Assembly (NCBI RefSeq): GCF_009909105.1 | Contig: NZ_JAAAPK010000002.1 | Coordinates: 349,827 to 413,826, forward strand | Reading direction: 5' to 3' | Length of the DNA: 64,000 nucleotides | Origin: Corallococcus exiguus | Lineage (GTDB): Bacteria > Myxococcota > Myxococcia > Myxococcales > Myxococcaceae | The notes under the pieces: model-generated | The model's input: only the letters and a program-made list of their open reading frames with translations | Told to the model about the DNA's origin: nothing | The model's database searches: none | Part shown: positions 22,789 to 38,656 of the stretch, in pieces | Position numbering within the stretch: the first letter of the stretch is position 1 | Layout of the letters: each line of letters begins with the position of its first letter | Program-made: the position numbers and the translations under genes

Positions 22789-23653
22789 GACTGTTCAGGG
22801 CTTAGCACCCAACGCTGGAAGGCTGCTAGGGTCCCGGGCCGTGCCCTTTGAAAGCGGACGGCGGCTCTGCCTGCTGGTGGAGGCCGGAGAGACGCGCTAC
22901 GCGGTGGAGGCCACCTCCGTCATCGAGGTCGCGATGCCGGGCGCTCGCGGCGCGAGTCTGCGCGGCGTACTGGAAGTGAAGGACCTCGCCGCGTTGCTCG
23001 GCGGCCTGCCTGAGGAAGTGCCGGGCATGGTGGTGGTCCTGGACGTCAGCCCCACGCTCGCGGTGCGGGTGCGCGCCGTGGTGGAGGTCGCGGACGTCGC
23101 GAGGGATCCGTTCTTCCTGCTGCCTCCGGGCCTGGCGGACTCGCTGGCGCCGCTGAGCCGGGGCGCGGTGCTGCACAAGGACCGGCTGTACCTGGAGCTC
23201 ATCGTGGAGGCGCTGCCGCACCGGGCGGGCCCCCGGGCGACCCCGCCGGAGCCCCGGCCCGTGCACTATGCGGACGCGCCCCCGGAGCGGGCGCTGGTGC
23301 TGGAGTCCCAGGGGGTGCTGTTCGGCGTCCCGCTGGGTTGCGTCTCCCAGGTGGTACCCCGGGGCGAGGCGTTCAGCGTGCTCCCGGTGCAGAGCGGGCC
23401 GGTGGCGGGCGTCTATCCCCACGCGCAGGCGCTATGGCCCATCTGTTCGATTCCAGCGCTGCTGGGTGCGCCGGCCCAGGCGGAGGAGCTGTTCGTCCTC
23501 ACGGAACTGGCGGGGCGGAACGTGGGGCTGGCGGCCACCCGGGTGCTTGGTGTGCTGCAGAAGTTCAAGCCGGCCGAGCTTCCCGGAACGTTCCGGGCGC
23601 CGGGGCTGCCGGATCCGGTGATGTTACTGGACCTGCAGCGCATGTTTTCTTGA
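22787..23653 (+). CDS. Tandem CheW-like domain protein
   Basis: Two CheW-like segments (RRLCLLVEAGETRYAVEATSVIEV... and ERALVLESQGVLFGVPLGCVSQVV...). Start uncertain (the ORF table starts at 22745). Confidence 0.5.
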   Translation: MTVQGLAPNAGRLLGSRAVPFESGRRLCLLVEAGETRYAVEATSVIEVAMPGARGASLRGVLEVKDLAALLGGLPEEVPGMVVVLDVSPTLAVRVRAVVEVADVARDPFFLLPPGLADSLAPLSRGAVLHKDRLYLELIVEALPHRAGPRATPPEPRPVHYADAPPERALVLESQGVLFGVPLGCVSQVVPRGEAFSVLPVQSGPVAGVYPHAQALWPICSIPALLGAPAQAEELFVLTELAGRNVGLAATRVLGVLQKFKPAELPGTFRAPGLPDPVMLLDLQRMFS

Positions 23654-23770
23654 TCGGCCCAACGCGCGAATCCTAAGCTTCTCCGATTGACACAGGGCGT
23701 GCAGGCAGGCTTGCTCGCCCGAAATCTCAAACGAATTCAGGGGGGTATGCGCCCCCCGAGGCCGGAGCCG

Positions 23771-25033
23771 ATGCCCAAGAATCTACTGATCGCCGACGAC
23801 TCGCTCACCATCCGCAAGGTGATCGGGATGATCTTCGCGACGGAAGACTTCCAGGTGACCGCGGTGGACAACGGGCTGGACGCCATCTCCCGCACGCGCG
23901 AGCTGCGTCCGGACGTGGTGCTCGCCGACGTGATGATGCCGGGCAAGAGCGGCTACGAGGTCTGCGAGGCGCTCAAGGGCGACCCCTCCACGCAGGCCAT
24001 CCCGGTGCTGCTGCTCGCCGGCACCTTCGAGGCGTTCGACGAGAACCGCGCGAAGGCCGCCCGGGCGGATGACCACATCACCAAGCCCTTCGAGAGCCAG
24101 ATCCTCCTCGACAAGGTGAAGGCGCTGGTGGGCCAGAAGTCCAACACGATGCCCGCGTCCGCCGCGACGCGCATTCTGCCCCAGACCTCCGCCCCGAGCG
24201 CTCCGGTCAGCGCGCCGCCCGCCGCCGCCGTGCCGCCGGGTGCGCGTCCCGCGGGTGCGCCGCCTCCGGGCGCCATGCCGCCGGGTGCGCGTCCTCCTCC
24301 GGGTGCGCCGCCTCCGGGCGCGCGTCCTCCGGGCGCCGGTGTGCCTCCTCCTCCGGGTGCGGCGCGTCCGCTGCCGGGCGCTGTTCCTCCGGGCGCGCGT
24401 CCTCCGGGTGCGCCGCCTCCGGGCGCCATGCCGCCGGGTGCGCGTCCTCCGCCGGGTGCGCCGCCTCCGGGCATGGGCGCGCGTCCTCCGGGTGCGCCGC
24501 CTCCGGGCGCCATGCCGCCGGGTGCGCGTCCTCCTCCGGGTGCCGTGCCTCCGGGCGCGCGTCCGCCGGGTGCGCCGCCTCCGGGCATGGCCGCGCGTCC
24601 TCCGGGCCCTGGCGCCCCGAACATCCCGGGCGGCTTCCCGCGTCCTCCGGGCGCCGCGCCGCTGCCGTCCGCGCCCCCGCCCGCCGCGGTGCCTCCGGCC
24701 GCCCGTGCCCGGGATCCGTTCGGGCTGGGTGCTCCGGCCGCCCCTCCCGCGGCGCAGGCCCGCACGGAGAGCATCCGCATCGAGGACTCGCTGCCCGAGC
24801 CCAGCGGCGCGGAGGAGATCTCCCTGGACATCGGCGGTCCCTCGCCGGCGACTCCGCCCGCGCGCGCCCGTCCGGCCGCGGATGGCGGAGAGGCGCTGCT
24901 TCGCGAGGCGCTGTCGAAGGCGTCCCGCGAGGTCATCGAGAAGATTGCCTGGGAGGTCGTTCCGCAGCTGGCGGAGACCATCATCCGGGAAGAGCTGGAG
25001 CGGCTCATCAAGGACCGCGAGACCCAGCATTGA
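23771..25033 (+). CDS. romR: RomR-like polarity response regulator (receiver - Pro-rich repeat linker - acidic C-terminal domain)
   Basis: Receiver domain (LLIADDSLTIRK...DVVLADVMMPGKSGYE...KP), then ~130 aa of PPGARPPGAPPPGAMPPGARPP repeats, then a Glu-rich C-terminus. This is the architecture of M. xanthus RomR, whose known neighbours it shares. Confidence 0.6.
   Translation: MPKNLLIADDSLTIRKVIGMIFATEDFQVTAVDNGLDAISRTRELRPDVVLADVMMPGKSGYEVCEALKGDPSTQAIPVLLLAGTFEAFDENRAKAARADDHITKPFESQILLDKVKALVGQKSNTMPASAATRILPQTSAPSAPVSAPPAAAVPPGARPAGAPPPGAMPPGARPPPGAPPPGARPPGAGVPPPPGAARPLPGAVPPGARPPGAPPPGAMPPGARPPPGAPPPGMGARPPGAPPPGAMPPGARPPPGAVPPGARPPGAPPPGMAARPPGPGAPNIPGGFPRPPGAAPLPSAPPPAAVPPAARARDPFGLGAPAAPPAAQARTESIRIEDSLPEPSGAEEISLDIGGPSPATPPARARPAADGGEALLREALSKASREVIEKIAWEVVPQLAETIIREELERLIKDRETQH
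24224..24620 (+). repeat. In-frame tandem DNA repeats encoding the PPGARPPGAPPPGAM linker of romR
   Basis: Repeated ccgggtgcgcgtcctcc(g)ggtgcgccgcctccgggcgccatgccg units seen directly. Confidence 0.55.
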
Positions 25034-25086
25034 TTCGCAGTCCCCTCTGATTCCCCGCCGGCCCCGTCGGGGGCCGGCCGCTTGCA

Positions 25087-28000
25087 ATGACTGACACGAC
25101 TGAACTGTCCAAGGCCTACGAGCCCTCCGAAGTGGAGGCGCGGTGGTACAACCACTGGCTGGAGCGCGACTACTTCCGCGCCGAAGCCCCTTCCTCCAAG
25201 CCGCCGTTCAGCATCGTGCTGCCGCCGCCCAACGTGACGGGCAGCCTGCACATCGGCCACGCGCTCACCGCGACCATCCAGGACATCCTCACGCGCTGGA
25301 AGCGGATGAGCGGCTTCAACGCGCTCTGGCTGCCGGGCACGGACCACGCGGGCATCGCCACGCAGATGGTGGTGGAGAAGGAGCTCAAGAAGACGGAGGG
25401 CAAGAGCCGCCACGACCTGGGCCGCGAGGCGTTCCTCGAGCGCGTCTGGACGTGGAAGGGCAAGTTCGGCGCGCGCATCGGTGAGCAGCACCGCTACCTG
25501 GGCGCGTCCCTGGACTGGAGCCGCGAGCGGTTCACCATGGACGAGCAGTCCTCGGCCGCGGTGCGCGAGGTGTTCGTCCGGCTGTACGAAGAGGGCCTGA
25601 TGTACCGGGCCCAGAAGCTGATCAACTGGTGCCCGTCCTGCCGCACGGCCCTCTCCGACCTGGAAGTGGAGCACGAGGAGAAGAACGGCTCGCTCTGGCA
25701 TATCCGCTACCCGGTGAAGGGCACGGAGCGCTTCCTCACCGTGGCGACGACGCGCCCGGAGACGCTGCTGGGCGACACGGCCGTCGCCGTGCACCCGGAG
25801 GATCCGCGCTACCAGGACCTCATCGGCAAGAGCGTGGCGCTGCCGCTCACCGACCGTGAGATTCCGGTCATCGCGGACGGCGAGCTGGTGAACATGGAGT
25901 TCGGCACCGGCGTGGTGAAGGTCACGCCCGCGCACGACTTCAACGACTACCAGACGGGCCTGCGCCACAAGCTGCCGATGCTGTCCATCCTGGACGAAGC
26001 GGCGCGGATGACGAAGGACACCGGCAAGTACGCGGGCCTGGAGAGCCGGGAGGCGCGCAAGCAGGTGCTGGCGGACCTGACGGAGCTGGGCCTGCTGGAG
26101 AAGGAGGAGCCGCACAAGCTGAACGTGGGCACCTGCCAGCGCTGCACCACGGTGGTGGAGCCGCGCCTGTCGCCGCAGTGGTTCATCAAGATCGAACCGC
26201 TGGCGAAGCCGGCCATCCAGGCCGTGGAGGAGGGCCGCACGAAGTTCGTCCCCGAGTCGTGGACGAACACGTACTTCCACTGGATGAACAACATCCACGA
26301 CTGGTGCGTGAGCCGCCAGCTGTGGTGGGGCCACCAGATTCCCGCGTGGTACTGCGCGGCGTGCACCCCGGCGGAAGAGCGCTCGAAGGACACGGCGGAC
26401 GTCATCGTGTCTCGCACGGCGCCGGAGTCCTGCCCGAAGTGCGGCGGCAAGGAGCTGACGCAGGATCCGGACGTGCTGGACACCTGGTTCTCGTCCGCGC
26501 TGTGGCCGTTCTCCACGCTGGGCTGGCCGAAGCAGACGGCGGACCTCCAGACCTTCTACCCGACGTCCGTGATGGAGACGGGCCACGACATCATCTTCTT
26601 CTGGGTCGCCCGGATGATGATGATGGGCCTGCACTTCATGAACGATGTGCCCTTCCGCACCGTGTACCTGCACGCGATGGTGCGCGACGAGAAGGGCGAG
26701 AAGATGTCCAAGACGAAGGGGAACGTCATCGATCCCTTGGACGTCATCCTCGGCGCGAAGGCGGAGTCGCTGCAGCCGTCCTTGCGCAACCGCTTCCCGC
26801 AGGGCATGCCCGCGCACGGCGCGGACGCGCTGCGCTTCACGCTGGCGTCGCTCACGCAGCAGGGCCGTGACATCAAGCTGTCGATGGACCGCCTGGGTGG
26901 CTACAAGGCGTTCTGCAACAAGCTGTGGAACGCCAGCCGCTTCGCCCTGATGAACATGGGCGACTTCAGCCTGGACAAGACGCCGCTGGAGGGCCGCAAG
27001 CTGACGCTGGCGGACCGGTGGATCCTCTCCCGCCTGCAGAAGGCCACCGAGGAGACGCGCGCGTCGCTGGAGGCGTTCGGCTTCGCGGAGGCCGCGTCCA
27101 CGCTGTACCAGTTCCTGTGGGCGGAGTTCTGCGACTGGTACATCGAGCTGGCGAAGGGCTCGTTGTACGGCGACGACGCGGAGGCCAAGGACACCACGCG
27201 CGCGGTGCTGGTGACGTGCCTGGACCGCATCCTGCGGCTGATGCACCCGTTCATGCCGTTCATCACCGAGGAGATCTGGCAGAAGCTGCCGATGTCCCGG
27301 CCCACGGAGAGCATCTGCATCGCGGCGTACCCGGCGCCGGAGACGGCGTGGGTGGACGCGGCCGCGGAAGGCGAGATGGCGCCGGTCATCGCGGCCATCG
27401 AGGGCCTGCGCACGCTGCGCGGCGAGAGCAACCTGCCGCCGTCCGCCAAGGTGAAGGCGGTGGTGCAGAGCCCGGACGCGACGACGCGCGAGCTGTTGGA
27501 GCGTTGGCGCGCGTACCTGATGCCGCTCGCGGGCCTGTCCGAGGTGGTGGTGGGCCCCCCGGGCGCCAAGCCTCCGCAGGCGGCGGCGTTCGTGAGCGGC
27601 AACCTGGAAATCTACGTGCCCCTGGCGGGCCTGGTGGACCTGGACGCGGAGCGCGACCGCCTGAAGAAGGAGATCGTCCGCTCCGAGCAGGAACTCACCG
27701 GTTTGCAGCGCAAGCTGGACAACCCGAACTTCGTGGCCCGTGCTCCGCCGGACGTGGTGGAGAAGGACAAGGCCCGGGTGGCGGAGCTCCAGGAGCGCAC
27801 GGTCAAGCTGCAGGATCACCTCCAGCGCATCGCCCCGGAGCCCCCCATGTCCGAGACGCCGTCGCCGTTGCCGGGCAGCACCGAGTCCGAAGCCCCTGAA
27901 GCGTCCGAGTCCCCCGCGCCCGAGAGCGCCCATGTGAAGGTGGCCACCGAGCCGCAGGCACCGAAGGACGATGCGGTGAACCTGGGCCAGGAGCTGAAGG

Positions 28001-28584
28001 GCGAGATTGAAGCCGAAGAGGCTTCGCAGGCGCCCCAGGCCGCGGATCCGGTGGTGGAGGAGGCCCTCAACAAGCTGCGCGAGGGCACCAAGGAAGGACT
28101 GTCCCCGGCGGACCACCACGACCTGGGCGTCGCGTACATGAGCATGGGCCTCGTGGACGACGCGATGCGCGAGTTCGACCGGGCCAAGGAGGGCGGCGAC
28201 GCCCGCGAGGCGCCGGAGGGTTCGGCGAAGCCGGTGAAGAAGGCCCCTGCGAAGAAGGCCTCCTCGAAGAAGGCGGCGGTGAAGAAGGCCCCTGCGAAGA
28301 AGGCCGCGGCGGTGAAGAAGGCCCCTGCGAAGAAGGCCTCCGCGAAGAAGGCGGCGAGCAAGAAGTCCGCCGCGAAGAAGGCCCCTGCGAAGAAGGCTTC
28401 CGCGAAGAAGGCAGCGGGCAAGAAGACGGCCGCGAAGAAGGCGGCGGTGAAGAAGGCTCCTGCGAAGAAGGCTTCGGCGAAGAAGGCTTCGGCGAAGAAG
28501 GCGGCGGGGAAGAAGACCGCCGCGAAGAAGGCCGCGGCGAAGAAGACCACTCGGGGCAAGCCGGCTCGCAAGGCGCGCCGGTAG
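25087..28584 (+). CDS. valS: Valine--tRNA ligase with ~280-aa C-terminal extension (acidic linker + histone H1-like AKKA repeats)
   Basis: HIGH ([13 protein letters not shown]) and KMSKS ([13 protein letters not shown]) motifs, editing domain, and a C-terminal coiled coil (up to ...LQDHLQRIA at ~aa 885). An E/P/S-rich segment, one TPR-like helix pair, and a [17 protein letters not shown] repeat tail follow. Confidence 0.9.
28234..28584 (+). repeat. Tandem DNA repeats encoding the Lys/Ala (AKKA) tail of valS
   Basis: Repeated gcgaagaaggcc(c/t)ctgcgaagaaggc units seen directly. Confidence 0.55.
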
Positions 28585-28587
28585 GAG

Positions 28588-29472
28588 GTGGAAGTGCAGC
28601 AGGATTATCTCGATCGGCTCATCGCGCTGTCCCTCGACGAGGACCTGGGTGCTGCGGGGGACGTCACCTCGCTGGCGGTGGTCCCCGCCGAAGCGGAGGG
28701 CAGCGGTGAGCTGGTCGCGAAGGAGCAGATGATCGTCGCCGGCCTGGACGCCTTCGTCCGCGTCTTCCACATGGTGGACGCGGAGGTGGAGGTGGAGGTC
28801 CTCAAGCGCGACGGCGAGGAGATCAAGCCGAAGGTGGTCGCCGCGCGCGTCCACGGCAAGCTGCGTTCGCTGCTGGCCGCGGAGCGCACGGCGCTCAACC
28901 TGGTGCAGCGCGCCGCCGGCATCGCGACGCTGGCCCAGCAGGCGATGACCTCCGTGCGAGGCTCGAAGCTGCGGGTGCTGGACACGCGCAAGACGCCGCC
29001 GGGCATGCGGGGCCTCGCGAAGCACGCGGTGCGCATGGGCGGCGCGTCCAACCACCGCTTCGGCCTCTTCGACGGCATCCTCATCAAGGACAACCACATC
29101 GCGGCGGTAGGTGGCGACATCACCGAAGCGGTGCGCCGCGCGAAGCTGAACGGTCCCCGGCTGGTGAAGATTGAAGTGGAGGTCACCAACTTCAAGCAGC
29201 TGGAGGAGGCCATCGCCGCGGGCGCGGACGTCATCATGTTGGACAACATGGACGACGCGCAGATCCGCGAAGCGGTGAAGCTGACGGCGAGCCGCGTGCC
29301 CATCGAAGTGTCGGGCGGCGTCACGTTGGATCGGCTGCCCCGGCTGGCGAAGCTGGGCGTGGACTTCGTGTCGATGGGCGCGCTGACGCACTCGGCGCGG
29401 GCCATGGACCTGTCGCTGGAGATCGCGACGACGAAGAAGTCCACGCGCAAGCCCCGCTCCGCGCAGGGCTGA
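28588..29472 (+). CDS. nadC: Nicotinate-nucleotide pyrophosphorylase (quinolinate phosphoribosyltransferase)
   Basis: Typical NadC length (294 aa) and conserved blocks (LDTRKTPPGMRGLAKHAVRMGGASNHRFGL, ILIKDNHI, IMLDNM). Confidence 0.85.
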   Translation: MEVQQDYLDRLIALSLDEDLGAAGDVTSLAVVPAEAEGSGELVAKEQMIVAGLDAFVRVFHMVDAEVEVEVLKRDGEEIKPKVVAARVHGKLRSLLAAERTALNLVQRAAGIATLAQQAMTSVRGSKLRVLDTRKTPPGMRGLAKHAVRMGGASNHRFGLFDGILIKDNHIAAVGGDITEAVRRAKLNGPRLVKIEVEVTNFKQLEEAIAAGADVIMLDNMDDAQIREAVKLTASRVPIEVSGGVTLDRLPRLAKLGVDFVSMGALTHSARAMDLSLEIATTKKSTRKPRSAQG

Positions 29473-29863: not shown

Positions 29864-30613
29864 TCAGTCGCGGATCCAGTGGAAGGTCACGCGGTCGCCA
29901 CCGGTGAGATGGTCACCCAGACCGCCCAATGAATACATCTCCGTGTGGATTCCGAAGAGCTTGGCCTTGCTGAAGATGAAGCGCGTGCTCGAGGCCTGCA
30001 CGATGGTCGTCCACTGCGAATTGGTGTCGCAGTTGTTCGTGGAGGCATTGGGCCAGTTGCACCAGGAGCTGCCGTTGTGGTTCCAGACGCGCCAGTCATC
30101 ACCGCCGCCCACGAGGGCGACCTGCTTCCACCACGTCACGTTGGAGCCGGAGTTGAGCCGGAACTCGATGACCTCCGGCCCCGCCACGTTGTGCTCGACC
30201 TCCGCGAGGATGACGTCGCCATCGGGCAGCTCGGCGTAGGCCACCTTCTCGCGGATCTCCCGGTCGCACGTGATGCAGGAGTTCTGGATGTCGCTGGGCG
30301 ACGTGCAGCCGCTCACGCTGTACTCCCCGGAGTACAACGGATGGGTCCCGCAGAAGTAGCACGAGTGGGTATAGGGCCCGGTCACGCACTCGGCCACGTA
30401 CTGCACCGTCGTCTTCCCGAAGTCGTTCCAGGAGAGGGCCGTCGTGGCCATGGCGGTGACGGTGCGACCTTCGTCCTGCGACGGAGCGACGGGCGCCTGC
30501 TCCTGGGGCGCGGCTTCGGGAACGGGCATCTCCTCCGTGGCGGGGCCGCAGCCCACGCCACCCAGAAGTCCAAGGACGAGGAACGACGACGCGAGCCGTG
30601 CGCGCTGAAGCAT
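29864..30613 (-). CDS. Cys-rich lipoprotein (249 aa)
   Basis: Start re-assigned by codon counting to MLQRARLASSFLVLGLLGGVGCG (lipobox) with GGAG upstream. The 5' 357 codons of the tabulated ORF (to 31684) are antisense to the MVP gene and are rejected. Multiple Cys pairs (CYFC, CITC) are present. Confidence 0.55.
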   Translation of the reverse strand: MLQRARLASSFLVLGLLGGVGCGPATEEMPVPEAAPQEQAPVAPSQDEGRTVTAMATTALSWNDFGKTTVQYVAECVTGPYTHSCYFCGTHPLYSGEYSVSGCTSPSDIQNSCITCDREIREKVAYAELPDGDVILAEVEHNVAGPEVIEFRLNSGSNVTWWKQVALVGGGDDWRVWNHNGSSWCNWPNASTNNCDTNSQWTTIVQASSTRFIFSKAKLFGIHTEMYSLGGLGDHLTGGDRVTFHWIRD

Positions 30614-30862
30614 GAGGGTTTCTCCAGATGAGGCAGAGCGGGCGCCGTCGTGGCGCTCCGCATGTCTGTCTGCCTGCGAATACGGAGAACCCCCGGCGCG
30701 CTGGTTGTTCGAAATGCGCTCCAGTCTGGAACACCGCGCACCGGAGTGGAGCGAGTGTCCGCGCCAGTCCGGTGCGGTGCGGAGCCGTTCCAGGGCGAGC
30801 GGTGACGGCATGGGGCTCGCAATGACTCGCGGCTGAACCCCACTCCCGCGAGCAGGTGTGCC

Positions 30863-33139
30863 ATGCCGTCCGCCCCCAGCACCGAAGCCATCCAGCGCAT
30901 CTCCCTGAAGAACCGCGAGTACGCATACATCGAGGACGCCAACCGCGGCGTCGTGCTGATGGAGGTGGGCCCGCGCGTGCTGACGCTCGAAGCGCACCTG
31001 ACGCTCGTGGCGAAGGAGCGGATGGTGGAGCTGGGCGCCGGCAGCTGGTGCGTGGTGCGCAACCCCGTGGTGCGTGTGGACGGCCAGGTGGCGCTGGACG
31101 ACTTCGGCCAGGCCCGCGTCGCGGTGGGCGACCGCGAGGTCCGCGTGGGCCCGAAGGTGTTCCCGCTGTACCCCGGCGAGGAGCTGGAGGGCGACATCGT
31201 CCCGGAATACGTCCTGGGCGTGTCGGAGGCGCTGCGTCTGCGCGCGCTCACCGCCTTCACGGACACCCACGTCCCGGACGCTCCCCGCCGCCGTGAAGCG
31301 GGTGACGAGTGGCTGGTGCGCGGCCCCGGCCGCTACGTGCCCGGCGAGTCCGTCACCGTCGTGTCGCTGGAGAAGGCCCGCGTCCTCAAGGAGACCGAGT
31401 ACTGCGTCATCCTCAATCCCGTGGACCGCGCCACCGGCCGCGTCCAGGAGGGCCGCCGCAAGGTCGTCTCCGGTCCGGATGTCTTCTTCCTCGAACCCGG
31501 CGAGGCGCTGGAAGGGGACGTGCGCCGCAAGCATGTCCTGTCGGAGCTGCAGGGCCTGAAGCTCCAGGCCCTGGACGACCTCTCCGAGAACGAGGGTGGC
31601 GAACCGCGCGCACGCAAGGCCGGTGACACGTGGATCGTCCGCGGCCCTCGCACCTACGTGCCCAGCGAGAAGGTCCTCATCCACCGGGAGATTGCCGCGC
31701 TGTCATTGGGGCAGGGGGAAGGCCTGTACGTGCGCGACCTGCGCTCGGGCAAGGTGTCGCTCGTCCAAGGGCCTTGCCAGTTCATGCCGGAGGCACACCA
31801 GGAACTGCACGAGAAGCGCCTGTCCCCGGACGCGGAGGCCCTGCTGGGCCTCACTCCGCCGCTGCCGCTCGCGGAGGCGAAGGACGCCCGCGCGCCACGG
31901 CCCACAAGCGCGACGGAGAAGGGGGACCGCACTCGCGCCATCGTGCTGCGCATCGAGGACAACACGGCGGTCCTCATCAACGACTTCGAGTCCAATCACG
32001 CGCGCGTGGAGTTCGGCCCCGCGAAGGTGATGTTGCGTCCGTACGAGGACGTCACCGTCCTGGATTTGTCCGGCAGCACGCCCAAGCGCCCGCGTCAGCT
32101 CAAGGTGCTGATGCTGCGGCTGGGGCCGGACTTCGCCACGGACCTCTTCGAGGTGGCCACTCGCGACCACGCGCGGCTGCGCATCAAGCTTTCGTACAAA
32201 TGGCAGTTCGACGTGCAGGGGGACCCGGAGAAGGACAAGGCCATCTTCCGGGTGAACGACTTCATCGGGTACGTGTGTGAGAACCTCGCGTCGCGCATCC
32301 GCCAGGTCGCCGCGGAGAACGAGTTCGAGACCTTCCACAAGAACGCCAGCGTGCTCATCCGCCGCACCATCTTCGGCATGGATGACGCGGGCCGCGCTCG
32401 CAAGGACCGCCTCTTCTCCGAGAACCAGCTGCGCATCATCGACATCGACATCAAGGACATCGCCCCCGTCGATGAGAAGACGGCCCTGAAGCTGCGCGAG
32501 GCCATCGACACCAACATCCAGATCCAGCTGGACGCCTCACGCCAGGAGGCCCAGGCCGCCGCGGAGCTCAAGCGCATCCGCAGCGAGGAGGAGAAGCAGC
32601 TCGCGGACATCGCCAGCCACCGCAAGTCGGAGGCGGAGCGCCAATCCCTCATCGAATTGCAGAACCGCAACCACCAGCTGGAGACGCTCAGCCGCGCCAA
32701 GGTGGAGGCGGAGGCCCAGCTGGAGCGCGCCCGCGTGGAGAGCGAAGAGGCCCTGGCCCGCGCCGAGTCCGACGCCCGCGCCTCGCGCATCCGCTCCGAA
32801 GCGGAGATCGAGCGCGAACGGCTCACCACCCAGGTGGCCCTGGATCGCCAGCAGCGCCTCAATGACCTGGAGGTGGAGCGCCAGTCGCGCCTCGCGGAAG
32901 TGGAAGCCGGCCAATTCCGTCAGCGCGTGGAGTCCCTGGGGGGAGGGGAGAACTTCGTGAAGGCCGTGGCCGCGCAGGCCCAGGCCGCCGTCGTCGGAGG
33001 CCTGGACAAGGTCGTCTTCCTCCCCAGCGGCTCCAACCTCAACCTCTTCGACGCCATGCAGGGACTCCTGGGGCCCGGCGGACAACCCCGCCTGTCCGCC
33101 CACAACGCCCCGAAGCCGCCCGGCGACACTTCGGCCTGA
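30863..33139 (+). CDS. Major vault protein (MVP) homologue: vault repeats + shoulder (SPFH-like) domain + cap-helix coiled coil
   Basis: Block-by-block similarity to eukaryotic MVP as recalled from memory: FPLYPGEELEGDIVP vs PLYPGEVLEKDITP; AGDEWLVRGPGRYVP vs AGDEWLFEGPGTYIP; EYCVILNPVD...FFLEPGEALEGDV...VLSELQGLKLQALD vs HNYCVILDPVG...FFLQPGEQLEQGI...VLSEQQGLLLRALQ. Also RVEFGPAKVMLRPYEDVTVLDLSGSTPKRP...LGPDFATDL...DHARLRIKLSYKWQFDV vs [30 protein letters not shown]...LGPDFFTDV...DHARLQLQLAYNWHFEV. A long Ala/Glu/Arg-rich coiled coil is followed by NLNLFDAMQGLLGPGGQP. It is about 135 aa shorter than human MVP, with fewer N-terminal repeats. Confidence 0.8.
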   Translation: MPSAPSTEAIQRISLKNREYAYIEDANRGVVLMEVGPRVLTLEAHLTLVAKERMVELGAGSWCVVRNPVVRVDGQVALDDFGQARVAVGDREVRVGPKVFPLYPGEELEGDIVPEYVLGVSEALRLRALTAFTDTHVPDAPRRREAGDEWLVRGPGRYVPGESVTVVSLEKARVLKETEYCVILNPVDRATGRVQEGRRKVVSGPDVFFLEPGEALEGDVRRKHVLSELQGLKLQALDDLSENEGGEPRARKAGDTWIVRGPRTYVPSEKVLIHREIAALSLGQGEGLYVRDLRSGKVSLVQGPCQFMPEAHQELHEKRLSPDAEALLGLTPPLPLAEAKDARAPRPTSATEKGDRTRAIVLRIEDNTAVLINDFESNHARVEFGPAKVMLRPYEDVTVLDLSGSTPKRPRQLKVLMLRLGPDFATDLFEVATRDHARLRIKLSYKWQFDVQGDPEKDKAIFRVNDFIGYVCENLASRIRQVAAENEFETFHKNASVLIRRTIFGMDDAGRARKDRLFSENQLRIIDIDIKDIAPVDEKTALKLREAIDTNIQIQLDASRQEAQAAAELKRIRSEEEKQLADIASHRKSEAERQSLIELQNRNHQLETLSRAKVEAEAQLERARVESEEALARAESDARASRIRSEAEIERERLTTQVALDRQQRLNDLEVERQSRLAEVEAGQFRQRVESLGGGENFVKAVAAQAQAAVVGGLDKVVFLPSGSNLNLFDAMQGLLGPGGQPRLSAHNAPKPPGDTSA

Positions 33140-33224: not shown

Positions 33225-34250
33225 GTGACGACGATGAGCAACCCCGAAGGGGCGGTCCGGAAGCGCGGTGCACGGTGGTTCGGCATGGGGGCCCTGGCGG
33301 CCCTCGCGCTGGCCGTGGTGGCGCCGGGATGCAGCAGCGACGAGTGCGTGGATGCGTTCGACTGCCGCGATGAGGGCGCGGCCCCCGCGGGCAAGGCATG
33401 GACCTGCAACGCGGACAAGAAGTGCGAGCAGCGCACCCTGACGCCGACCGAAGAGCCTGAGACGGACGCGGGCACCACCACTGACGCCGGGACGACCCCC
33501 GACGCGGGCACCACCACCGACGCGGGCACGGGCGGCGAGACGGACGCGGGCACGGAGACCGACGCGGGCACGCCTCCCGCGGATGGCGGCGCGGAGCTGT
33601 GCCGCAACGCCGTGGCCTGCACGGAGCAGAGCATCGACAAGCTCCGGCTCCGCACGGTCGGCTCCGACGGCGGCGTGATTGAAGAGGGCACGACGGCGGG
33701 CGAGCACCTCACGTACCTGGATGGCCGCGGGGGTGGCACGGCGGTGCCGGACTCGTACACCTACGCGCGCTTCACGGCGACGGGCCTGGAGAAGGTCTAC
33801 ATCGATGATCAGTCCTCGCTGGATTCGACCGCGTGGGACGTCGCGGTGCGCCGGTACGTCGTCCGCTTCAACAGCGGCGTGTCCGGCCCGTCGTGCGTGA
33901 CCGTGGCGCAGACGGCGGACGGCACGACGTTCGAGTCGGTGACCTCCGTGCCCACGGATGCGCAGTTCGTTGCGGAGAACTACTACACGCCCGACACCTG
34001 CACGTTCACCGGGGACTCGTTTGGCCTTCAGAGCCCGGCGACCCAGACCCTCTCGTACTGGGACTACGCTTCCTGCCTGCAGATGACGAACAAGGTCTAC
34101 CTGGTCCAGCTGGCGGACGGCCGTCACGTGAAGCTGCAGGTCAAGGACTTCTATGAGCCCGCGATCCAGGAGGAGTGCAACACGACGGGCAAGGTGAGCT
34201 CGACGGCCAGCTCAGGGTCGATCCGCCTGCGGTGGTCCTTCCTGCCGTGA
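33225..34250 (+). CDS. Lipoprotein with low-complexity TDAGT linker and C-terminal ~220-aa domain of unknown function
   Basis: Signal peptide + lipobox (LALAVVAPGCSS), then an (E/T)TDAGT repeat linker, then a globular domain with 6 Cys. Stop overlaps the start of the next gene. Confidence 0.5.
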   Translation: MTTMSNPEGAVRKRGARWFGMGALAALALAVVAPGCSSDECVDAFDCRDEGAAPAGKAWTCNADKKCEQRTLTPTEEPETDAGTTTDAGTTPDAGTTTDAGTGGETDAGTETDAGTPPADGGAELCRNAVACTEQSIDKLRLRTVGSDGGVIEEGTTAGEHLTYLDGRGGGTAVPDSYTYARFTATGLEKVYIDDQSSLDSTAWDVAVRRYVVRFNSGVSGPSCVTVAQTADGTTFESVTSVPTDAQFVAENYYTPDTCTFTGDSFGLQSPATQTLSYWDYASCLQMTNKVYLVQLADGRHVKLQVKDFYEPAIQEECNTTGKVSSTASSGSIRLRWSFLP

Positions 34251-35818
34251 TGACCCTCGGGGTTCCCACGCTGCTCCTGCTGCTGGCCGGCGCGGGAACC
34301 CCGCGTGGCCTCCCGCACGAGCGGGAGGCCGTACAGAAGCTGGTCGCCGAGTCCGGGCGGCCCACCTCGCCTGGCGCGCCATCGCCGCGCTACGAGCCCG
34401 AGGACACGGTGGAGTCCGTCGTGTCTCCGGGCGGGCGCTTCCGCATCCACTTCACCCGCCAGGGCACCCACGCCGTGCCGCCAGCGGACGCGGATGGCAG
34501 CGGCGTGCCCGACTTCGTGGAGCTCGTCGGGCGCACCTACGAACGCGTGGCGACGTTCTACGTGGACCTGGGCTTCCGCCTGCCGCCCGACGACACGAAT
34601 CCGGCCGGGGACGACGGCGGCGACGGCCGCTTCGACGTGTACCTGGTGGACTTCGCGAGGATTGGCGACGGCGCCTTCCGGCAGGAGACCTGCCTGGAGG
34701 GCGTCACGCGCTGCACCGGCTTCATGCTCCAGGAGAACGACTTCACGGGCTACAACTACCCGTCCGACGCAGAGGCCGTGGAGATCCTGGCCAGCCACGA
34801 GTTCTTCCACGCGGTGCAGGCCGCCTACCGGCCTGACCTGGGCGGCGTCGCCTCCGAGGGCACCGCCGTCTGGGCCACCGAGCGCTTCGAGCCCGCGCTC
34901 GACGACCTGGAGCACTTCACCCGCGGCTACATGCTGACTCCGGACAGCACGCTGGTGCTGGACCCCGCGGGGCCCGGCGTGACCTTCATCTACGGCGCGG
35001 GGCTCTTCTTCCAGTTCGTGGGCGAGCGCTACGGTGACGGCGCGCTCGTCGCGCTGCTGGAGGAGTCCGTGCGCCAGCCGGAGGCCCGCTGGCCGGTGCT
35101 GCTGGACACCTGTCTGCGCCGCGACTTCGCCTCCAGCTTCGACGCGGCCTTCGCCCAATTCGCCACCTGGAACCTGGGCACCGGCCCGCGCGCGACGCCG
35201 GGGTTCGGCTACGCGCGAGGGGAGGGCTATGCACCGGTGGCGAAGACGGCGGCGGAGCTCCCCACCACGATCGACCGCGTGCGCGTCGCGGCGGCGGCCT
35301 CGCGGATCTTCGAGGTCCCCGGCGGCGCTTCCTTCGTGGGCGCCTCGTTCGAGCCCGAGCCGGGCATCGACCCGGCCACGGTGCACCTGGTCGTCGCGGC
35401 CGTCACGGATGACGCCGTGCTGCGGGTGGCGACCGTGGACGGGCCGGACGCCCTGCGCGCCCAGGTGGCCGCGGATGACGCCACGCGCGTGATGGTGGCG
35501 GTCGTGGATGGCCGGATGGAAGGCCTGGGTCGCTATGGCCGCCTGTGCATCGCTGCCACTGGCCAGTCCGCGTCCTGCGCGCCCCTCGAGTCGACGGATG
35601 CCGGAACCGACGCTGGGACCCCCGATGCCGGCGCGGACGCGGGCACCGCCGATGCGGGGACCGTGGACGCGGGCAGGCCCGTGGATCCCATCGATGATCC
35701 GCGCACGCCCTCGGATGACGGTGGCTGCCAGGCCGCGGGTGGCCCCCTGTCCGGTGCGCTCGTCGCGCTGCTGCTCGGCGGGGGCCTGCGGGCCCGGCGG
35801 CGTTCACGGGCGCGTTAG
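34250..35818 (+). CDS. Secreted HExxH zinc metalloprotease with MYXO-CTERM sorting/anchor domain
   Basis: Signal peptide (MTLGVPTLLLLLAGAG), zincin motif HEFFHAVQ, and a C-terminal TDAGT low-complexity segment. The terminal GGCQAAGGPLSGALVALLLGGGLRARRRSRAR is the MYXO-CTERM signature. Confidence 0.6.
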   Translation: MTLGVPTLLLLLAGAGTPRGLPHEREAVQKLVAESGRPTSPGAPSPRYEPEDTVESVVSPGGRFRIHFTRQGTHAVPPADADGSGVPDFVELVGRTYERVATFYVDLGFRLPPDDTNPAGDDGGDGRFDVYLVDFARIGDGAFRQETCLEGVTRCTGFMLQENDFTGYNYPSDAEAVEILASHEFFHAVQAAYRPDLGGVASEGTAVWATERFEPALDDLEHFTRGYMLTPDSTLVLDPAGPGVTFIYGAGLFFQFVGERYGDGALVALLEESVRQPEARWPVLLDTCLRRDFASSFDAAFAQFATWNLGTGPRATPGFGYARGEGYAPVAKTAAELPTTIDRVRVAAAASRIFEVPGGASFVGASFEPEPGIDPATVHLVVAAVTDDAVLRVATVDGPDALRAQVAADDATRVMVAVVDGRMEGLGRYGRLCIAATGQSASCAPLESTDAGTDAGTPDAGADAGTADAGTVDAGRPVDPIDDPRTPSDDGGCQAAGGPLSGALVALLLGGGLRARRRSRAR

Positions 35819-36864
35819 CGCTCGAACTCGTCGCACCCCGTCTCCTGCTTGGACGGGAAGGCGGACTTCTTCTCCTGGCGCACGTAGTCGTGGCTCTGGG
35901 AGAAGAGGTCCGGGCTGCTCACGGTCACGGTGCCCTTCGCGGCGTCGGCCGTCTTCCACTGGAGCGCCTCCGGCTTGCCGTCCGCGGCCGTGAGCCCCAG
36001 CACCCAGGCCCCGGCGCCCTTGCCGGCCTCCACGGACGTCACCTTCATCGTCGTGGCCTCCTGGCCCAGCTGCACCTCCACCTCGCCCGTCGCGGGCTTG
36101 ACGGTGAAGCTGCGCGTCGCGGCCGAGCAGGGCTTGAGCACCACGAAGCCCTTGCCCTGACGCGTCAGCTCCACCCACGTCCCCGCGAACGGCTGGAGTT
36201 TGTCCGCGGCCACGGGAGCCTTCGCGGCCGTGGGCGCGCCTTCCGCCGCACAGTCCAGGTCCTCGCGCTTGAGCAGCCCCGCCGTGGCCTTCTGGGGCCC
36301 CTGGAAGCGCGCGGCGAGGAAGTCCGGCTCCACCGGGTCGACGTAGGCCTCCACCGCGTCCCCGGACACCACGAACGCCTTGCGCGGCGTGTTGGCCGCG
36401 TCAGAAGCGTGGAAGCCCGCCTTGGACACCTTCACCTTGCAGATGCTCAGCGGCTTGGAGGTGCTCCGGGCGAACGTGTCCTTGCCTGAGTAGCCGGCGC
36501 CGCAACAGGACGGTGACGGACCCGACTCCAGGACGAATTGCTTGGGATTGACGCGCAGCGTCCAGGCGTCTTCCTCACCCGCCTGATGAAGTGACCAATT
36601 CGTGGCTGTCTTCTTCTGGACGACCAGGGCGCAATCGCAGGTGCCCGCGCTGCTGCCCTGCGGGAACGAGCCCGAGAAGTGCACGAGCGTCTCGTTGCTG
36701 CCCTCGACGATGGCGAGCGTCCCGCTCTTGTTCGAATAGACCCCCGTGAGTCCCTCGGATCCCTGAGCCGAGGCGTCCGGGACCGCGCCTGTGACGCAAA
36801 TGGCAAACGGCAATGCCAAACTTTTGAATTCCGGTTGGATCCTGGACATCGGACTGGTCCTCAT
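35815..36864 (-). CDS. Secreted hypothetical protein
   Basis: N-terminal signal peptide (SLALPFAICVTGAVPDASAQG). No recognisable domain. Several Cys. Confidence 0.4.
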   Translation of the reverse strand: MRTSPMSRIQPEFKSLALPFAICVTGAVPDASAQGSEGLTGVYSNKSGTLAIVEGSNETLVHFSGSFPQGSSAGTCDCALVVQKKTATNWSLHQAGEEDAWTLRVNPKQFVLESGPSPSCCGAGYSGKDTFARSTSKPLSICKVKVSKAGFHASDAANTPRKAFVVSGDAVEAYVDPVEPDFLAARFQGPQKATAGLLKREDLDCAAEGAPTAAKAPVAADKLQPFAGTWVELTRQGKGFVVLKPCSAATRSFTVKPATGEVEVQLGQEATTMKVTSVEAGKGAGAWVLGLTAADGKPEALQWKTADAAKGTVTVSSPDLFSQSHDYVRQEKKSAFPSKQETGCDEFER

Positions 36865-36937
36865 GGGCAGGTTCTTCAGCCTCAGCGGATCGATCCGCTG
36901 AAACTGAAGCTGCTGGAATCACTGGTTTCACACGATT

Positions 36938-38656
36938 GTGACTGGGAATGCGAAACTGATCGCATTGCCTTTCGATAATCCGGGCAATCCAAGCACGTCC
37001 GCGGCGCCTTTGGTCGCGGCCAGACATCGAGGGGTCTTCTCCGTGACCGTCTCCAACATCCGCGTCAATTCGGGCGACACGCTTTCCGGCCTCGCGAAGC
37101 GCTACAACACGACCGTTGACGCGCTGGCCAAGGCGAACAACATCAAGGATCCGAACAAGATCCTGGCCGGCCAGACGCTGAAGGTGCAGGACGGCTTCGA
37201 CACGAAGGGCACCAACAAGTCGAGCGCGGGGACGAAGACGTCGGGCGACAGCTTCACGCAGTCCACGGACGGCGCGAAGGCGACCACGCCCGCCGCGAAC
37301 ACGAACTCCAGCAGCGCGACCAACGGGGAGTTGGGTGGGCTGAGCCGCAAGTACGAGGCTCGCGGCCCCGGCACCGTGTCCACGGGCAAGGGTGACAAGG
37401 GCGGCGTGTCCTACGGCTCCTACCAGTTCGCCTCCGCGAACGGGTCCGCGCAGTCGTTCGTCAACTCGCTGAAGAAGACGAACCCGGAGTTCCACAAGGC
37501 GCTGTCGGGCAGCAAGCCGGGCACTGCGGAGTTCTCCGCCGCGTGGAAGCAGCTGGCCGCGAAGGACCCGAAGGGCTTCGACAAGGCGCAGCACGACTAC
37601 ATCAAGACCACGCACTACGACGCGGGCGCCGCCAACATCAAGAAGGCGACGGGCATCGACCTGGACAAGCGCTCCGCTGCGCTGCGGGACGTGGCCTGGT
37701 CCACCTCCGTGCAGCACGGCCCGGGCAAGGCGGACGACATCTTCAAGAAGGCGCTCAACGGGCGCGACCCCGCGAAGGTGAGCGACGAGCAGCTCATCAA
37801 GGACATCTACGCCGAGCGCGGCCGCACCAACGCCAGCGGCACCCTGGTGCACTTCTCCGGCAGCTCCAAGGACGTGCAGAAGGGCGTGGCCAACCGATTC
37901 AAGTCGGAGGCGAAGGACGCCCTCGCGATGCTGAAGCAGGAGAAGTCGGGCACCACGACCAAGCCGGCCAACACCAACACGGGCGTGGTTCCCCCGTCCG
38001 TGAACAACGGTTCGAAGCCGGGCACCACGGAAGGCAAGCCCACGACGCAGGGCACGAACACCTCCAAGCCCACCACGGAGGCGGCCCCCGCGAACACGGA
38101 GCAGGTGGCCCCGTCCAAGGACAAGCCGGCGGTGCACGTGAAGGTGCCGTACTACAGCCAGTTCGAGAACGGCCACGGCTACACCGCGAGCGACACGGCG
38201 TGCTTCAAGGCCGCGACGGCGATGGCGCGTGACTCCGGCGCGACCGTGCTGGGCCCGGACCGCCGCATTCAGGTGGGCAAGAGCGAGAACGGCGTCGGCG
38301 CGCTCAACGTGGACTCGAAGAAGGCCGCCGAGGGCCGCAGCTACATCGACAAGCAGCTGGAGGCCGGCAAGCCGGTGGTCGTGGGCGTGAGCCACAAGGA
38401 CGCGAGCTACAACGCGGACGGCCTCACGGACCACTTCGTGACCATCACGGGCCGCGGCGTCGACGACAAGGGCCGCACCTACTACACGTTCCACGACCCG
38501 GGCACGAAGAACGCCAGCACGGGCAAGGACACGAACCCGAACAACCGCTTCTACGTGGATGACAAGACCGGGAACATGTACCGCCCCGGCAAGGCCGCGA
38601 ACGGCTACGTGACCGAGCGCCACTACGACGTGGCCATGGTGCGCATCAACAAGTAG
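36938..38656 (+). CDS. LysM-domain cell-wall hydrolase with lysozyme-like central domain and C-terminal papain-like (Cys-His) peptidase domain
   Basis: LysM ([46 protein letters not shown]). The central region ([21 protein letters not shown]...[11 protein letters not shown]) resembles phage/effector-type muramidase domains. C-terminal Cys (DTACFKAA) and His ([12 protein letters not shown]) residues with YYTFHDPG are typical of CHAP/C39-like amidases. No N-terminal signal peptide. Confidence 0.55.

What the first reader, a model, noticed from the sequence alone, without database searches (positions are those of the whole stretch)
30863..33139. Bacterial Major Vault Protein homologue
Multiple long collinear blocks match eukaryotic MVP: vault repeats (PLYPGE..., AGDEWL..GPG.Y.P, YCVILNP), shoulder domain (FGPxxVxL...LGPDFxTD...DHARL), cap-helix coiled coil, and a C-terminal NLF...GLLG motif. 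Vaults are a hallmark eukaryotic ribonucleoprotein. Bacterial MVP genes are rare, patchy (probably HGT-derived) and functionally uncharacterised. This copy lacks about three N-terminal repeats, which would predict a shorter barrel if it assembles at all. Codon usage is host-like (GC3-rich), so it is not a recent contaminant.
Basis: partly seen in the sequence, partly recalled or inferred. Interest (0 to 1): 0.8.

Follow-up and report, generated by a model that had tools for sequence, protein, structure and literature searches.

The report
Seven-repeat bacterial major vault protein
This Corallococcus (myxobacterium) gene is a true, well-conserved relative of the protein that builds the eukaryotic "vault" particle. 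Such bacterial copies, including the Corallococcus one, are already in the literature, and nobody has yet shown what they do.

Summary
Confirmed. The ORF at 30863-33139 (+) encodes a 758-aa full-length homologue of major vault protein (MVP). Pfam finds MVP_shoulder at 9e-45 plus Vault, Vault_2, Vault_3 and Vault_4. Rat and human vault cage chains match at about 1e-139, and the AlphaFold model's best PDB matches are vault cages at about 1e-51. The gene is native to the genome: GC3 is 0.92, it is syntenic across Corallococcus, and dN/dS is 0.04-0.16 within Myxococcaceae/Archangiaceae.

One detail needs correcting. The protein does not lack about three N-terminal repeats. It lacks exactly two internal repeats, R4 and R5 (rat residues 170-277). 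R1-R3, R6-R9, the shoulder, a cap helix of unchanged length (156 aa) and the C-terminal NLF..GLLG motif are all present.

The missing block held part of the human PARP4 docking site. The core of the NAD+ pocket (K, R, P, D, F, W) is conserved, but its rim and the waist salt-bridge residues are not. No partner gene recurs next to it in any lineage.

The 7-repeat proteins form a deep bacterial clade, 30-38% identical to eukaryotic MVPs. This is not a recent transfer from a eukaryote.

The finding is not new. Daly 2013 and a 2023 preprint already cite Corallococcus coralloides MVP, and some UniRef and JGI/IMG entries name close homologues "major vault protein". Assembly and function remain untested.

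The parts
30691..30862 (+). Upstream non-coding stretch that stays with the gene across Corallococcus genomes. Presumed promoter and 5' UTR. A weak Shine-Dalgarno-like AGG lies 6 nt before the ATG.
   Evidence: blastn synteny with eight Corallococcus loci begins at window 30691-30718 in seven of them, while sequence further upstream differs. Sequence read. No sigma-70 consensus was found, so the promoter is inferred only.
30863..33139 (+). MVP homologue coding sequence, 758 aa plus stop codon
   Evidence: dN/dS 0.04-0.16 against orthologues within Myxococcaceae/Archangiaceae
30863..31039 (+). Repeat R1 (aa 1-59), the waist domain. N27 (rat N22) is invariant. Rat R9, D39 and R42 are replaced by S14, A44 and T47.
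   Evidence: Boundaries are approximate, mapped from rat MVP.
31040..31201 (+). Repeat R2 (aa 60-113), Vault_2 type
   Evidence: Pfam Vault_2 at aa 54-112. Best score is to rat R2, 117.
31202..31390 (+). Repeat R3 (aa 114-176), Vault type. The place where R4 and R5 are absent lies immediately after it, between K176 and E177 (nt 31390/31391).
   Evidence: Pfam Vault at aa 116-161. Both halves score best against R3 of the cyanobacterial long form, and the C-terminal half also against rat R3. Gap = rat 170-277 = alignment columns 199-306.
31391..31552 (+). Equivalent of repeat R6 (aa 177-230), Vault_2 type
   Evidence: Best score is to rat R6, 114.
31553..31765 (+). Equivalent of repeat R7 (aa 231-301), Vault type
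   Evidence: Best score is to rat R7, 174.
31766..31936 (+). Equivalent of repeat R8 (aa 302-358), including a low-confidence linker at aa 333-353
   Evidence: Pfam Vault_4 at aa 279-329. pLDDT below 50 for aa 333-353.
31937..32125 (+). Equivalent of repeat R9 (aa 359-421). It includes the basic 'keyhole loop' STPKRPRQLK (aa 405-414), which matches human R504-R512.
   Evidence: Pfam Vault_3 at aa 360-420. Pocket residues mapped using Lodwick 2025.
32126..32470 (+). Shoulder domain (aa 422-536), SPFH-like fold. D423, F424 and W447 (human D521, F522, W545 of the NAD+ pocket) are invariant.
   Evidence: Pfam MVP_shoulder at aa 421-537, E=9e-45. Foldseek hits to HflK/C, flotillin, prohibitin and stomatin cages..
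32471..32938 (+). Cap-helix domain (aa 537-692), 156 aa, the same length as rat 647-802
   Evidence: Alignment to rat. AlphaFold predicts helices at 538-573 and 585-691.
32939..33136 (+). Cap-ring / C-terminal region (aa 693-758), with the conserved NLNLFDAMQGLLG motif (aa 725-737, nt 33035-33073) and a disordered tail

Best explanation
The gene encodes a true bacterial orthologue of major vault protein in a Corallococcus genome. It belongs to a distinct clade with 7 repeats instead of 9, because repeats R4 and R5 are absent.

Shown: it has the complete MVP domain series (R1-R3, R6-R9, SPFH-like shoulder, a 156-aa cap helix, C-terminal cap-ring motif). It has no membrane anchor. It is under strong purifying selection and is a stable resident of Corallococcus chromosomes.

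Inferred: like eukaryotic MVP and like every structurally solved protein that joins an SPFH domain to a long helix, it self-assembles through lateral packing of cap helices and shoulders into a hollow, cytoplasmic, vault-like dome or cage. Two fewer barrel repeats per half would make a full particle roughly 9-10 nm shorter than the 66-nm eukaryotic vault. This length estimate is my own.

The basic pocket between neighbouring shoulders, which binds NAD+, ADP and ADP-ribose in human vaults, keeps its core residues. Binding of a nucleotide-type ligand is therefore plausible but unproven.

The protein cannot dock a PARP4-type MINT domain the way human MVP does, because part of that site lay in the missing block. 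No partner or cargo gene is linked to it. It probably acts as a stand-alone shell whose contents are unknown.
For: Homology: Pfam MVP_shoulder 9e-45 plus four vault-repeat families. Rat, human and rabbit vault chains match at about 1e-139 over aa 8-742. The AlphaFold model (pLDDT about 85-90 over the repeats) has vault cages as best PDB matches at 4e-51, followed by SPFH cages.

Architecture: there is a single internal gap equal to rat 170-277. Repeats match one-to-one: q1-3 = R1-3 and q4-7 = R6-9. The cap helix is the same length as in rat.

Functional gene: GC3 is 0.92. dN/dS is 0.04-0.16 across Corallococcus and Archangiaceae. MVP is the best conserved gene in its neighbourhood, at 93-98% identity, while both flanks gain and lose genes.

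Cytoplasmic: no hydrophobic segment, maximum KD19 1.33.

Pocket: K408, R409, P410, D423, F424 and W447 equal human K506, R507, P508, D521, F522 and W545. K, D, F and W are invariant in all 16 bacterial sequences.

MINT site: human Q172 and D214 fall in the missing block.

Stand-alone: 11 neighbourhoods in different lineages share no gene and contain no TROVE, PARP or NACHT domain. Rfam finds no vault RNA or Y RNA in the window.
Against: No experiment on any bacterial MVP was found in the searchable literature, so assembly is inference only.

The residues that bond the two half-vaults at the eukaryotic waist (R9, D39, R42) are conserved in the 9-repeat bacterial proteins but replaced by S/A/T in this clade. 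Several lateral salt-bridge residues also differ (D383, R474, E492, K476, E485, E530, E644). The contacts, copy number or even closure into a two-halved particle may therefore differ.

Pocket rim residues are not conserved: R437A, R504T, H509R, R511L, P565N, K573E.

The monomer model is poor (pLDDT below 50) for the keyhole loop and part of the cap helix, and pTM is only 0.39.

Eukaryotic partners (TEP1, PARP4, vault RNA) could be searched for only in the 64-kb window and in neighbourhoods, not genome-wide.
Confidence: 0.6

Rival explanations
1. It forms a single dome (half-vault) or ring that sits on the inner membrane or another surface, like the bacterial SPFH cages HflK/C and QmcA, rather than a free, closed, two-halved vault.
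For: The shoulder has an SPFH fold, and Foldseek hits HflK/C, flotillin, prohibitin, stomatin and erlin cages. The waist residues R9, D39 and R42 that hold the two halves together in eukaryotes are lost in this clade but kept in 9-repeat bacterial MVPs. A 2026 paper reports that Dictyostelium vaults associate with membranes in situ (PMC13100048, title and abstract seen). The sister representatives P0158 and P0175, and also P0131 inside the 7-repeat clade, additionally hit Pfam Band_7.
Against: There is no transmembrane or amphipathic anchor (max KD19 1.33). There is no NfeD- or FtsH-type partner next to the gene. The query itself has no Band_7 hit at E<=0.1. R1 is well conserved, with invariant L15, D25, N27, G29, G36, P37 and L42, which suggests the waist domain still has a job.
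Confidence: 0.2
2. It does not build a cage. It acts as a soluble nucleotide-binding or scaffolding protein, as Sokolskyi (2019) proposed for bacterial MVP-like proteins, for example by sequestering nucleotides during phage infection.
For: The basic pocket core is conserved. Many inter-subunit salt-bridge residues differ from human. The idea is published as a hypothesis.
Against: In human vaults the NAD+ pocket is formed between two neighbouring subunits, so it requires assembly. The 156-aa cap helix keeps exactly the same length, which is hard to explain without a packed helical bundle. There is no match to any PADLOC defence model and no defence-island context immediately around the gene.
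Confidence: 0.12
3. The gene is a recent acquisition from a eukaryote, or eukaryotic contamination of the assembly.
For: MVP is best known from eukaryotes. Its distribution in bacteria is very patchy: at least 102 relatives among the 185,579 GTDB species genomes, a lower bound from a pattern-based scan. The other bacterial clade, with 9 repeats, is 53-57% identical to rat MVP.
Against: GC3 is 0.92, like its neighbours. There are no introns. Its position is conserved in 12 Corallococcus genomes, three of them complete chromosomes. Identity to the eukaryotic MVPs compared is only 30-38%. The 7-repeat clade is monophyletic (NJ bootstrap 82) and lies outside the eukaryote plus 9-repeat group.
Confidence: 0.03
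4. It is a TolA-like 'colicin uptake' envelope protein, which is the name NCBI gives the 9-repeat bacterial homologues.
For: NCBI names many homologues 'colicin uptake protein'. The Ala/Glu/Arg-rich cap helix resembles TolA domain II in composition.
Against: There is no TolA domain hit, no N-terminal membrane anchor and no tol-pal neighbours. The whole length aligns with MVP. The name is an artefact of coiled-coil similarity.
Confidence: 0.01

Closest known systems
Eukaryotic major vault protein (rat and human MVP; PDB 4V60, 4HL8, 9BW5)
   Same: The domain order is collinear: R1-R3, R6-R9, SPFH-like shoulder, a 156-aa cap helix, and the cap-ring NLF..GLLG motif. Identity to rat is 38% over 724 aligned columns. 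The NAD+ pocket core K/R/P/D/F/W is conserved.
   Different: There are seven repeats instead of nine, with R4 and R5 absent. Part of the PARP4 MINT docking site is therefore gone. Waist residues R9, D39 and R42 are replaced, and the pocket rim residues are changed. The disordered shoulder loop (rat 611-620) is absent. No TEP1, PARP4 or vault RNA was detected nearby.
Myxobacterial MVP orthologues already in the literature: Corallococcus coralloides (UniProt H8MNI3, Daly 2013), C. coralloides and Melittangium boletus (2023 phage-MVP preprint), Hyalangium A0A085WQF1 (Sokolskyi 2019)
   Same: Same clade. The window protein is 97-99% identical to the closest Corallococcus orthologues (93-94% to the most divergent species) and 85-88% identical to the Archangium, Vitiosangium, Melittangium and Hyalangium proteins. 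Its published placement as sister to the eukaryote plus cyanobacteria cluster matches my tree.
   Different: Nothing substantive. I could not verify that H8MNI3 is this exact orthologue. The papers I could read do not describe the 7-repeat architecture or the R4-R5 gap.
Nine-repeat bacterial MVPs ('colicin uptake protein') of filamentous cyanobacteria, Chloroflexota and large sulfur bacteria
   Same: They are also stand-alone genes with no conserved neighbours, and have the same domain families.
   Different: They keep R4, R5 and the waist residues R9, D39 and R42. They are 53-57% identical to rat MVP but only 37-41% identical to the Corallococcus protein.
SPFH-family cages (HflK/C, QmcA-YbbJ, flotillin, prohibitin, stomatin, erlin)
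   Same: The shoulder fold followed by a long helix that bundles into a closed dome (Foldseek E 1e-8 to 1e-5).
   Different: Those proteins are membrane-anchored, lack vault repeats and form single domes. The query has no anchor and no Pfam Band_7 hit.

Membership tests
Major vault protein (MVP) | Tandem vault repeat domains (Pfam Vault, Vault_2, Vault_3, Vault_4) | tested here: met
   Vault_2 1.6e-31 (2 stretches), Vault 6.4e-31 (2 stretches), Vault_3 1.7e-19, Vault_4 3.5e-6. All are above the curated cut-offs.
Major vault protein (MVP) | MVP shoulder (SPFH-like) domain after the repeats | tested here: met
   PF11978 at aa 421-537, covering profile positions 1-118 of 118, E=9e-45; fold matches to vault and SPFH cages.
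Major vault protein (MVP) | Cap helix of about 155 residues, followed by the cap-ring C-terminus | tested here: met
   aa 537-692 align with rat 647-802 (156 aa each); long helices predicted. The NLNLF..GLLG motif aligns with rat INLF..GLLG.
Major vault protein (MVP) | Nine repeat domains (R1-R9) | tested here: not met
   seven repeats, with the R4 and R5 equivalents (rat 170-277) absent. All 12 sequences of the short clade that were compared share this. This is a difference of variant, not a reason to exclude it from the family.
Major vault protein (MVP) | Self-assembly into a hollow cage of two halves with 39 copies each | not testable with these tools
   Only monomer prediction was available. 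Waist residues R9, D39 and R42 are not conserved, and N22 is conserved.
Vault ribonucleoprotein (complete particle) | Association with TEP1 (TROVE/NACHT/WD40), PARP4 and vault RNA | tested here: inconclusive
   There are no such genes in the 11 neighbourhoods examined. Rfam finds no vault RNA or Y RNA in the 64-kb window. The PARP4 MINT contact residues Q172 and D214 lie in the missing block. The rest of the genome could not be searched.
Vault NAD+/ADP-ribose pocket (Lodwick 2025; Osinski 2026) | Basic pocket between neighbouring shoulders: R437, R504, K506, R507, P508, H509, R511, L517, D521, F522, W545, P565, K573 | tested here: inconclusive
   K506, R507, P508, D521, F522 and W545 are conserved. 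H509 becomes R and the neighbouring R512 becomes K. R437A, R504T, R511L, L517R, P565N and K573E are changed. Binding was not tested.
SPFH / Band 7 membrane scaffolds | Pfam Band_7 domain plus a membrane anchor | tested here: not met
   No Band_7 hit at E<=0.1. No hydrophobic segment. The similarity is at fold level only.
TolA / colicin uptake protein | N-terminal transmembrane anchor, TolA domains II and III, tol-pal context | tested here: not met
   none of these is present.

The most novel reading that the evidence does not exclude
Corallococcus builds a true bacterial vault: a free, hollow cytoplasmic cage made of this 7-repeat MVP. It would be naturally shorter than the eukaryotic particle and independent of PARP4, TEP1 and vault RNA, and would hold NAD+- or ADP-ribose-type nucleotides in its conserved shoulder pockets. 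That would make a culturable bacterium a minimal model for the unsolved question of what vaults are for. It would also show that the cage predates or exists outside the eukaryotic ribonucleoprotein.
Probability: 0.4. Interest if true: 0.75.

Novelty: already known. Interest (0 to 1): 0.35.

Why it matters
The function of the vault has been an open question since 1986. Recent cryo-EM work ties it to NAD+ and ADP-ribose binding. A bacterial MVP that needs none of the eukaryotic minor components would be a stripped-down system for two tests: whether the shell alone assembles, and what it binds. This one sits in a cultivable, social, predatory myxobacterium and comes as a natural 7-repeat variant.

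The existence of the gene is not news, because it is in the literature and in database names. The value added here is a corrected anatomy: the R4-R5 gap, the loss of the MINT docking site, the changed waist, and the retained pocket core. There is also evidence that this clade is old and under strong purifying selection, and is not a recent import from a eukaryote.

Tried and rejected
(1) Conserved gene neighbourhood. I compared 11 loci: the window, Melittangium, six metagenome or MAG contigs, and Oscillatoria, Nostoc and Parabeggiatoa genomes. No gene recurs, so context gives no functional clue.

(2) Vault RNA or Y RNA. The Rfam gathering scan of the whole window found only tRNA-Sec.

(3) Defence-system membership. 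No PADLOC model matches.

(4) NCBIfam has no model for the protein.

(5) Mobile carriers. There are no plasmid matches. Only three huge uncultured phages carry a distant MVP-like gene at 23-24% identity, so they are not a vector for this clade.

(6) The sigma-70 promoter and terminator scan found nothing above the shuffled expectation.

(7) Taxon labels for the representative sequences. Most are unnamed metagenomic proteins and only 6 of 20 could be labelled. The NJ tree therefore cannot settle the direction of transfer between eukaryotes and bacteria.

(8) Whether the 7-repeat state is ancestral or derived. The nearest outgroup representatives have about 8-9 repeats' worth of length before the shoulder, which hints at a deletion, but the alignment there is ambiguous.

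(9) The first alignment attempt timed out and was rerun with faster settings.

(10) TM-scores against vault chains are low (about 0.3) because the monomer model's long-range geometry is arbitrary. I relied on the E-values and the domain-level matches instead.

(11) The many long overlapping ORFs on other frames and strands, such as 23953-29391 (-), were rejected as shadows typical of GC-rich DNA, using GC3.
Full report
**Observation.** The window is GC-rich DNA (about 0.69). Its MVP protein is 99% identical to that of Corallococcus sp. AB038B. Its codon-position GC of 0.73/0.42/0.92 marks the real reading frame in this genome. Pfam gives MVP_shoulder (aa 421-537, full profile, E=9e-45), Vault_2 (1.6e-31), Vault (6.4e-31), Vault_3 (1.7e-19) and Vault_4 (3.5e-6), all above the curated cut-offs. 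phmmer against all PDB chains finds only major vault proteins, at 1e-139 for rat and 4e-135 for human, collinear from aa 8 to 742. An AlphaFold2 model built on a 16-sequence alignment is confident over the repeats (pLDDT about 85-90 for aa 10-330; mean 72.7). Its best PDB matches are rabbit, human and rat vault cages (E 4e-51 to 6e-42), followed by SPFH cages that match through the shoulder and helix.

**Anatomy and a correction.** I aligned the protein with 15 bacterial homologues and with rat MVP rebuilt from the alignment. The rat numbering was checked against the residues cited by Lodwick et al.. The protein lacks one contiguous internal block, rat residues 170-277 (108 aa). Local-alignment scores repeat by repeat give a clean one-to-one match: q1=R1, q2=R2, q3=R3, q4=R6, q5=R7, q6=R8 and q7=R9. 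Both halves of the third repeat score best against R3 of the cyanobacterial long form, and the C-terminal half also against rat R3. So exactly R4 and R5 are absent and the N-terminal repeats are intact. The shoulder (aa 422-536), a cap helix of unchanged length (aa 537-692 against rat 647-802) and the cap-ring motif NLNLFDAMQGLLG (aa 725-737) are all present. There is no hydrophobic segment (maximum 19-residue Kyte-Doolittle average 1.33) and no second copy in the window.

**Functional residues.** Lodwick et al. 2025 (PMC12280208) showed that human PARP4 docks through its MINT domain on R3-R5 (Q164, R169, Q172, D214). They also showed that NAD+ and ADP bind a basic pocket between neighbouring shoulder domains. 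Osinski et al. 2026 found ADP-ribose there in native brain vaults. In the Corallococcus protein, Q172 and D214 fall in the missing block, so that docking site cannot exist as it does in human. The pocket core is kept: K408, R409, P410, D423, F424 and W447 equal K506, R507, P508, D521, F522 and W545, and K, D, F and W are invariant in all 16 bacterial sequences. The rim residues differ: R437A, R504T, H509R, R511L, L517R, P565N and K573E. At the waist, N22 is invariant. R9, D39 and R42 form the polar and salt-bridge network between the two halves (PMC13347060). They are replaced by S, A and T in the whole short clade but retained in the 9-repeat bacterial proteins.

**A real, constrained, resident gene.** Across Corallococcus species the protein is 93-98% identical, while neighbouring proteins are 55-93% identical and only the aromatic amino acid hydroxylase comes close at 88-97%. 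dN/dS is 0.04-0.13 within Corallococcus, 0.13-0.16 against Vitiosangium, Hyalangium and Melittangium, and 0.29 against a 68%-identical relative. Downstream synteny is conserved in Corallococcus, but gene blocks come and go on both sides: a 256-aa lipoprotein upstream, an HmuY-like gene plus a 547-aa gene, and a 349-aa gene plus a LysM/VgrG3-C gene downstream. About 150-170 nt upstream of the start codon stays with the gene.

**Context.** Neighbours here are valS and nadC upstream and secreted or lipoprotein genes downstream. In Melittangium the neighbours are ruvC, ruvA and a dksA-like gene. In other lineages they are che genes, Clp/CorC, response regulators and kinases. No gene recurs, and no TROVE, PARP, vWA-PARP or NACHT protein is adjacent. 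Rfam finds only tRNA-Sec in the window. PADLOC has no match. The protein therefore appears to act alone, and context gives no clue to its cargo or role.

**Distribution and phylogeny.** The 5.8-billion-protein search gave 522 homologues at E<=1e-10. The exhaustive search of representatives gave 211 clusters (at 50% identity) at E<=1e-30. A pattern-based scan of 185,579 GTDB species genomes gave at least 102 relatives. These include 12 Corallococcus loci, Hyalangium, Archangium, Vitiosangium, many filamentous cyanobacteria, Thiomargarita, Parabeggiatoa and other Thiotrichaceae, Chloroflexota, and one MAG labelled Actinomycetota. No Myxococcus, Stigmatella or Cystobacter locus appeared among those kept.

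Of the 65 sequences aligned with the query and rat MVP (17 chosen homologues and 48 full-length representatives), only the query's clade lacks R4-R5 completely. This clade comprises the myxobacterial proteins, P0055/56, P0058/62/107 and P0131. In an NJ tree it is monophyletic (bootstrap 82/100). Under midpoint rooting it sits with two Band_7-positive representatives (P0158, P0175), opposite a group holding rat, Anaeramoeba, Intoshia, Lacrimia, Trypanosoma and the 9-repeat bacterial proteins.

The myxobacterial short-form proteins are 30-38% identical to eukaryotic MVPs and 37-41% identical to 9-repeat bacterial MVPs. The 9-repeat bacterial MVPs are 53-57% identical to rat, which is more than rat is to protist MVPs (31-47%). 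The 9-repeat bacterial clade thus looks like a transfer involving eukaryotes, as Daly et al. proposed. The Corallococcus clade is an old, separate lineage. A recent transfer from a eukaryote is excluded. An ancient transfer, in either direction, is not.

**What is already known.** Daly et al. 2013 (PMC3762200) list Corallococcus coralloides H8MNI3 among putative bacterial MVPs predicted to fold and dock like MVP. Sokolskyi 2019 (bioRxiv 872010) surveys Myxococcales, Cytophagales and Oscillatoriales and singles out the Hyalangium orthologue. The 2023 phage-MVP preprint places C. coralloides and Melittangium boletus MVPs as sister to the eukaryote plus cyanobacteria cluster, which my tree reproduces. 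UniRef and JGI/IMG already name some close homologues 'major vault protein'. I found no experimental work on any bacterial MVP, and none of the papers I read mentions the R4-R5 gap. The finding is therefore already known as a homology. My additions are anatomical detail.

**Mechanism.** Shown: a full MVP domain set, a cytoplasmic protein, and strong constraint. Inferred: lateral self-assembly through the cap-helix bundle and shoulders into a vault-like cage, because that is what MVP and every solved protein joining an SPFH domain to a long helix does, and because the cap-helix length is conserved exactly. With two fewer repeats per half, a two-halved particle would be roughly 9-10 nm shorter than the 66-nm vault (my estimate). 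Whether two halves join is uncertain because the waist residues differ. A membrane-apposed single dome is the main rival (about 0.2). Nucleotide binding in the shoulder pocket is plausible but unproven. The biological role (storage, sequestration, a stress or developmental role) cannot be deduced from the sequence or its context.

**Verdict.** Novelty: already known. Interest is moderate to low (0.35). A specialist would not be surprised that the gene exists, but bacterial vaults remain untested experimentally, and this 7-repeat, partner-free version would be a good minimal system.

Noticed in passing
window 9594-11965: A low-GC patch (GC 0.53 against about 0.69 for the window). It holds an IS66 transposase fragment (9594-9989, +), a 532-aa ORF with a GmrSD_N / DUF262 nuclease domain that best matches the PADLOC model NsnA (10184-11782, -), and a tRNA-Sec gene (11871-11965, -). 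It looks like a small foreign defence island inserted next to tRNA-Sec.
   Followed up: partly
window 25087-28584 (+): The valyl-tRNA synthetase gene encodes 1165 aa. It carries a long C-terminal extension that ends in many AKKA/PAKKA-type Lys/Ala repeats (histone H1-like), directly upstream of nadC.
   Followed up: no
window 29864-30634, 33225-35818, 35815-38656; loci L006-L026: Both flanks of the MVP gene vary by insertion and deletion among Corallococcus genomes. The 256-aa lipoprotein gene, the HmuY-like gene plus 547-aa secreted-protein gene, and the 349-aa gene plus LysM/VgrG3-C gene are each present in some strains and absent in others, while MVP stays put. In seven of the eight loci compared, sequence more than about 170 nt upstream of MVP does not match the window's valS-nadC region.
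   Followed up: partly
phage records LR756500.1 (21189-22703), LR756501.1 and LR756503.1 (17776-19566): Three huge uncultured phage genomes (462-735 kb records) encode distant MVP-like proteins, 23-24% identical over 63-67% of the query. This adds to the two gut phages reported in the 2023 preprint.
   Followed up: partly
proteins P0060, P0063, P0068, P0075, P0101, P0102, P0109 (loci L003-L005): The nine-repeat bacterial MVPs (cyanobacteria, Chloroflexota, Parabeggiatoa, and one MAG labelled Actinomycetota) are 53-57% identical to rat MVP. That is more than rat MVP is to protist MVPs (31-47%). They also keep the eukaryotic waist residues R9, D39 and R42. This fits gene transfer between eukaryotes and this bacterial clade. 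NCBI misnames them 'colicin uptake protein'.
   Followed up: partly
proteins P0058, P0062, P0107 (loci L086-L088): A divergent 7-repeat subgroup carries an insertion of about 45 residues in the R6-equivalent repeat and an insertion of about 11 residues in R9. The contigs are from unidentified bacteria. In L086 and L087 a single-domain response regulator gene sits just upstream of the MVP gene.
   Followed up: no
window 17581-25033: A GroEL-type chaperonin gene is followed by a signalling cluster: a hybrid histidine kinase-response regulator, a response regulator with a GGDEF domain, a CheW-domain protein and another response regulator. There is no evident link to the MVP gene.
   Followed up: no
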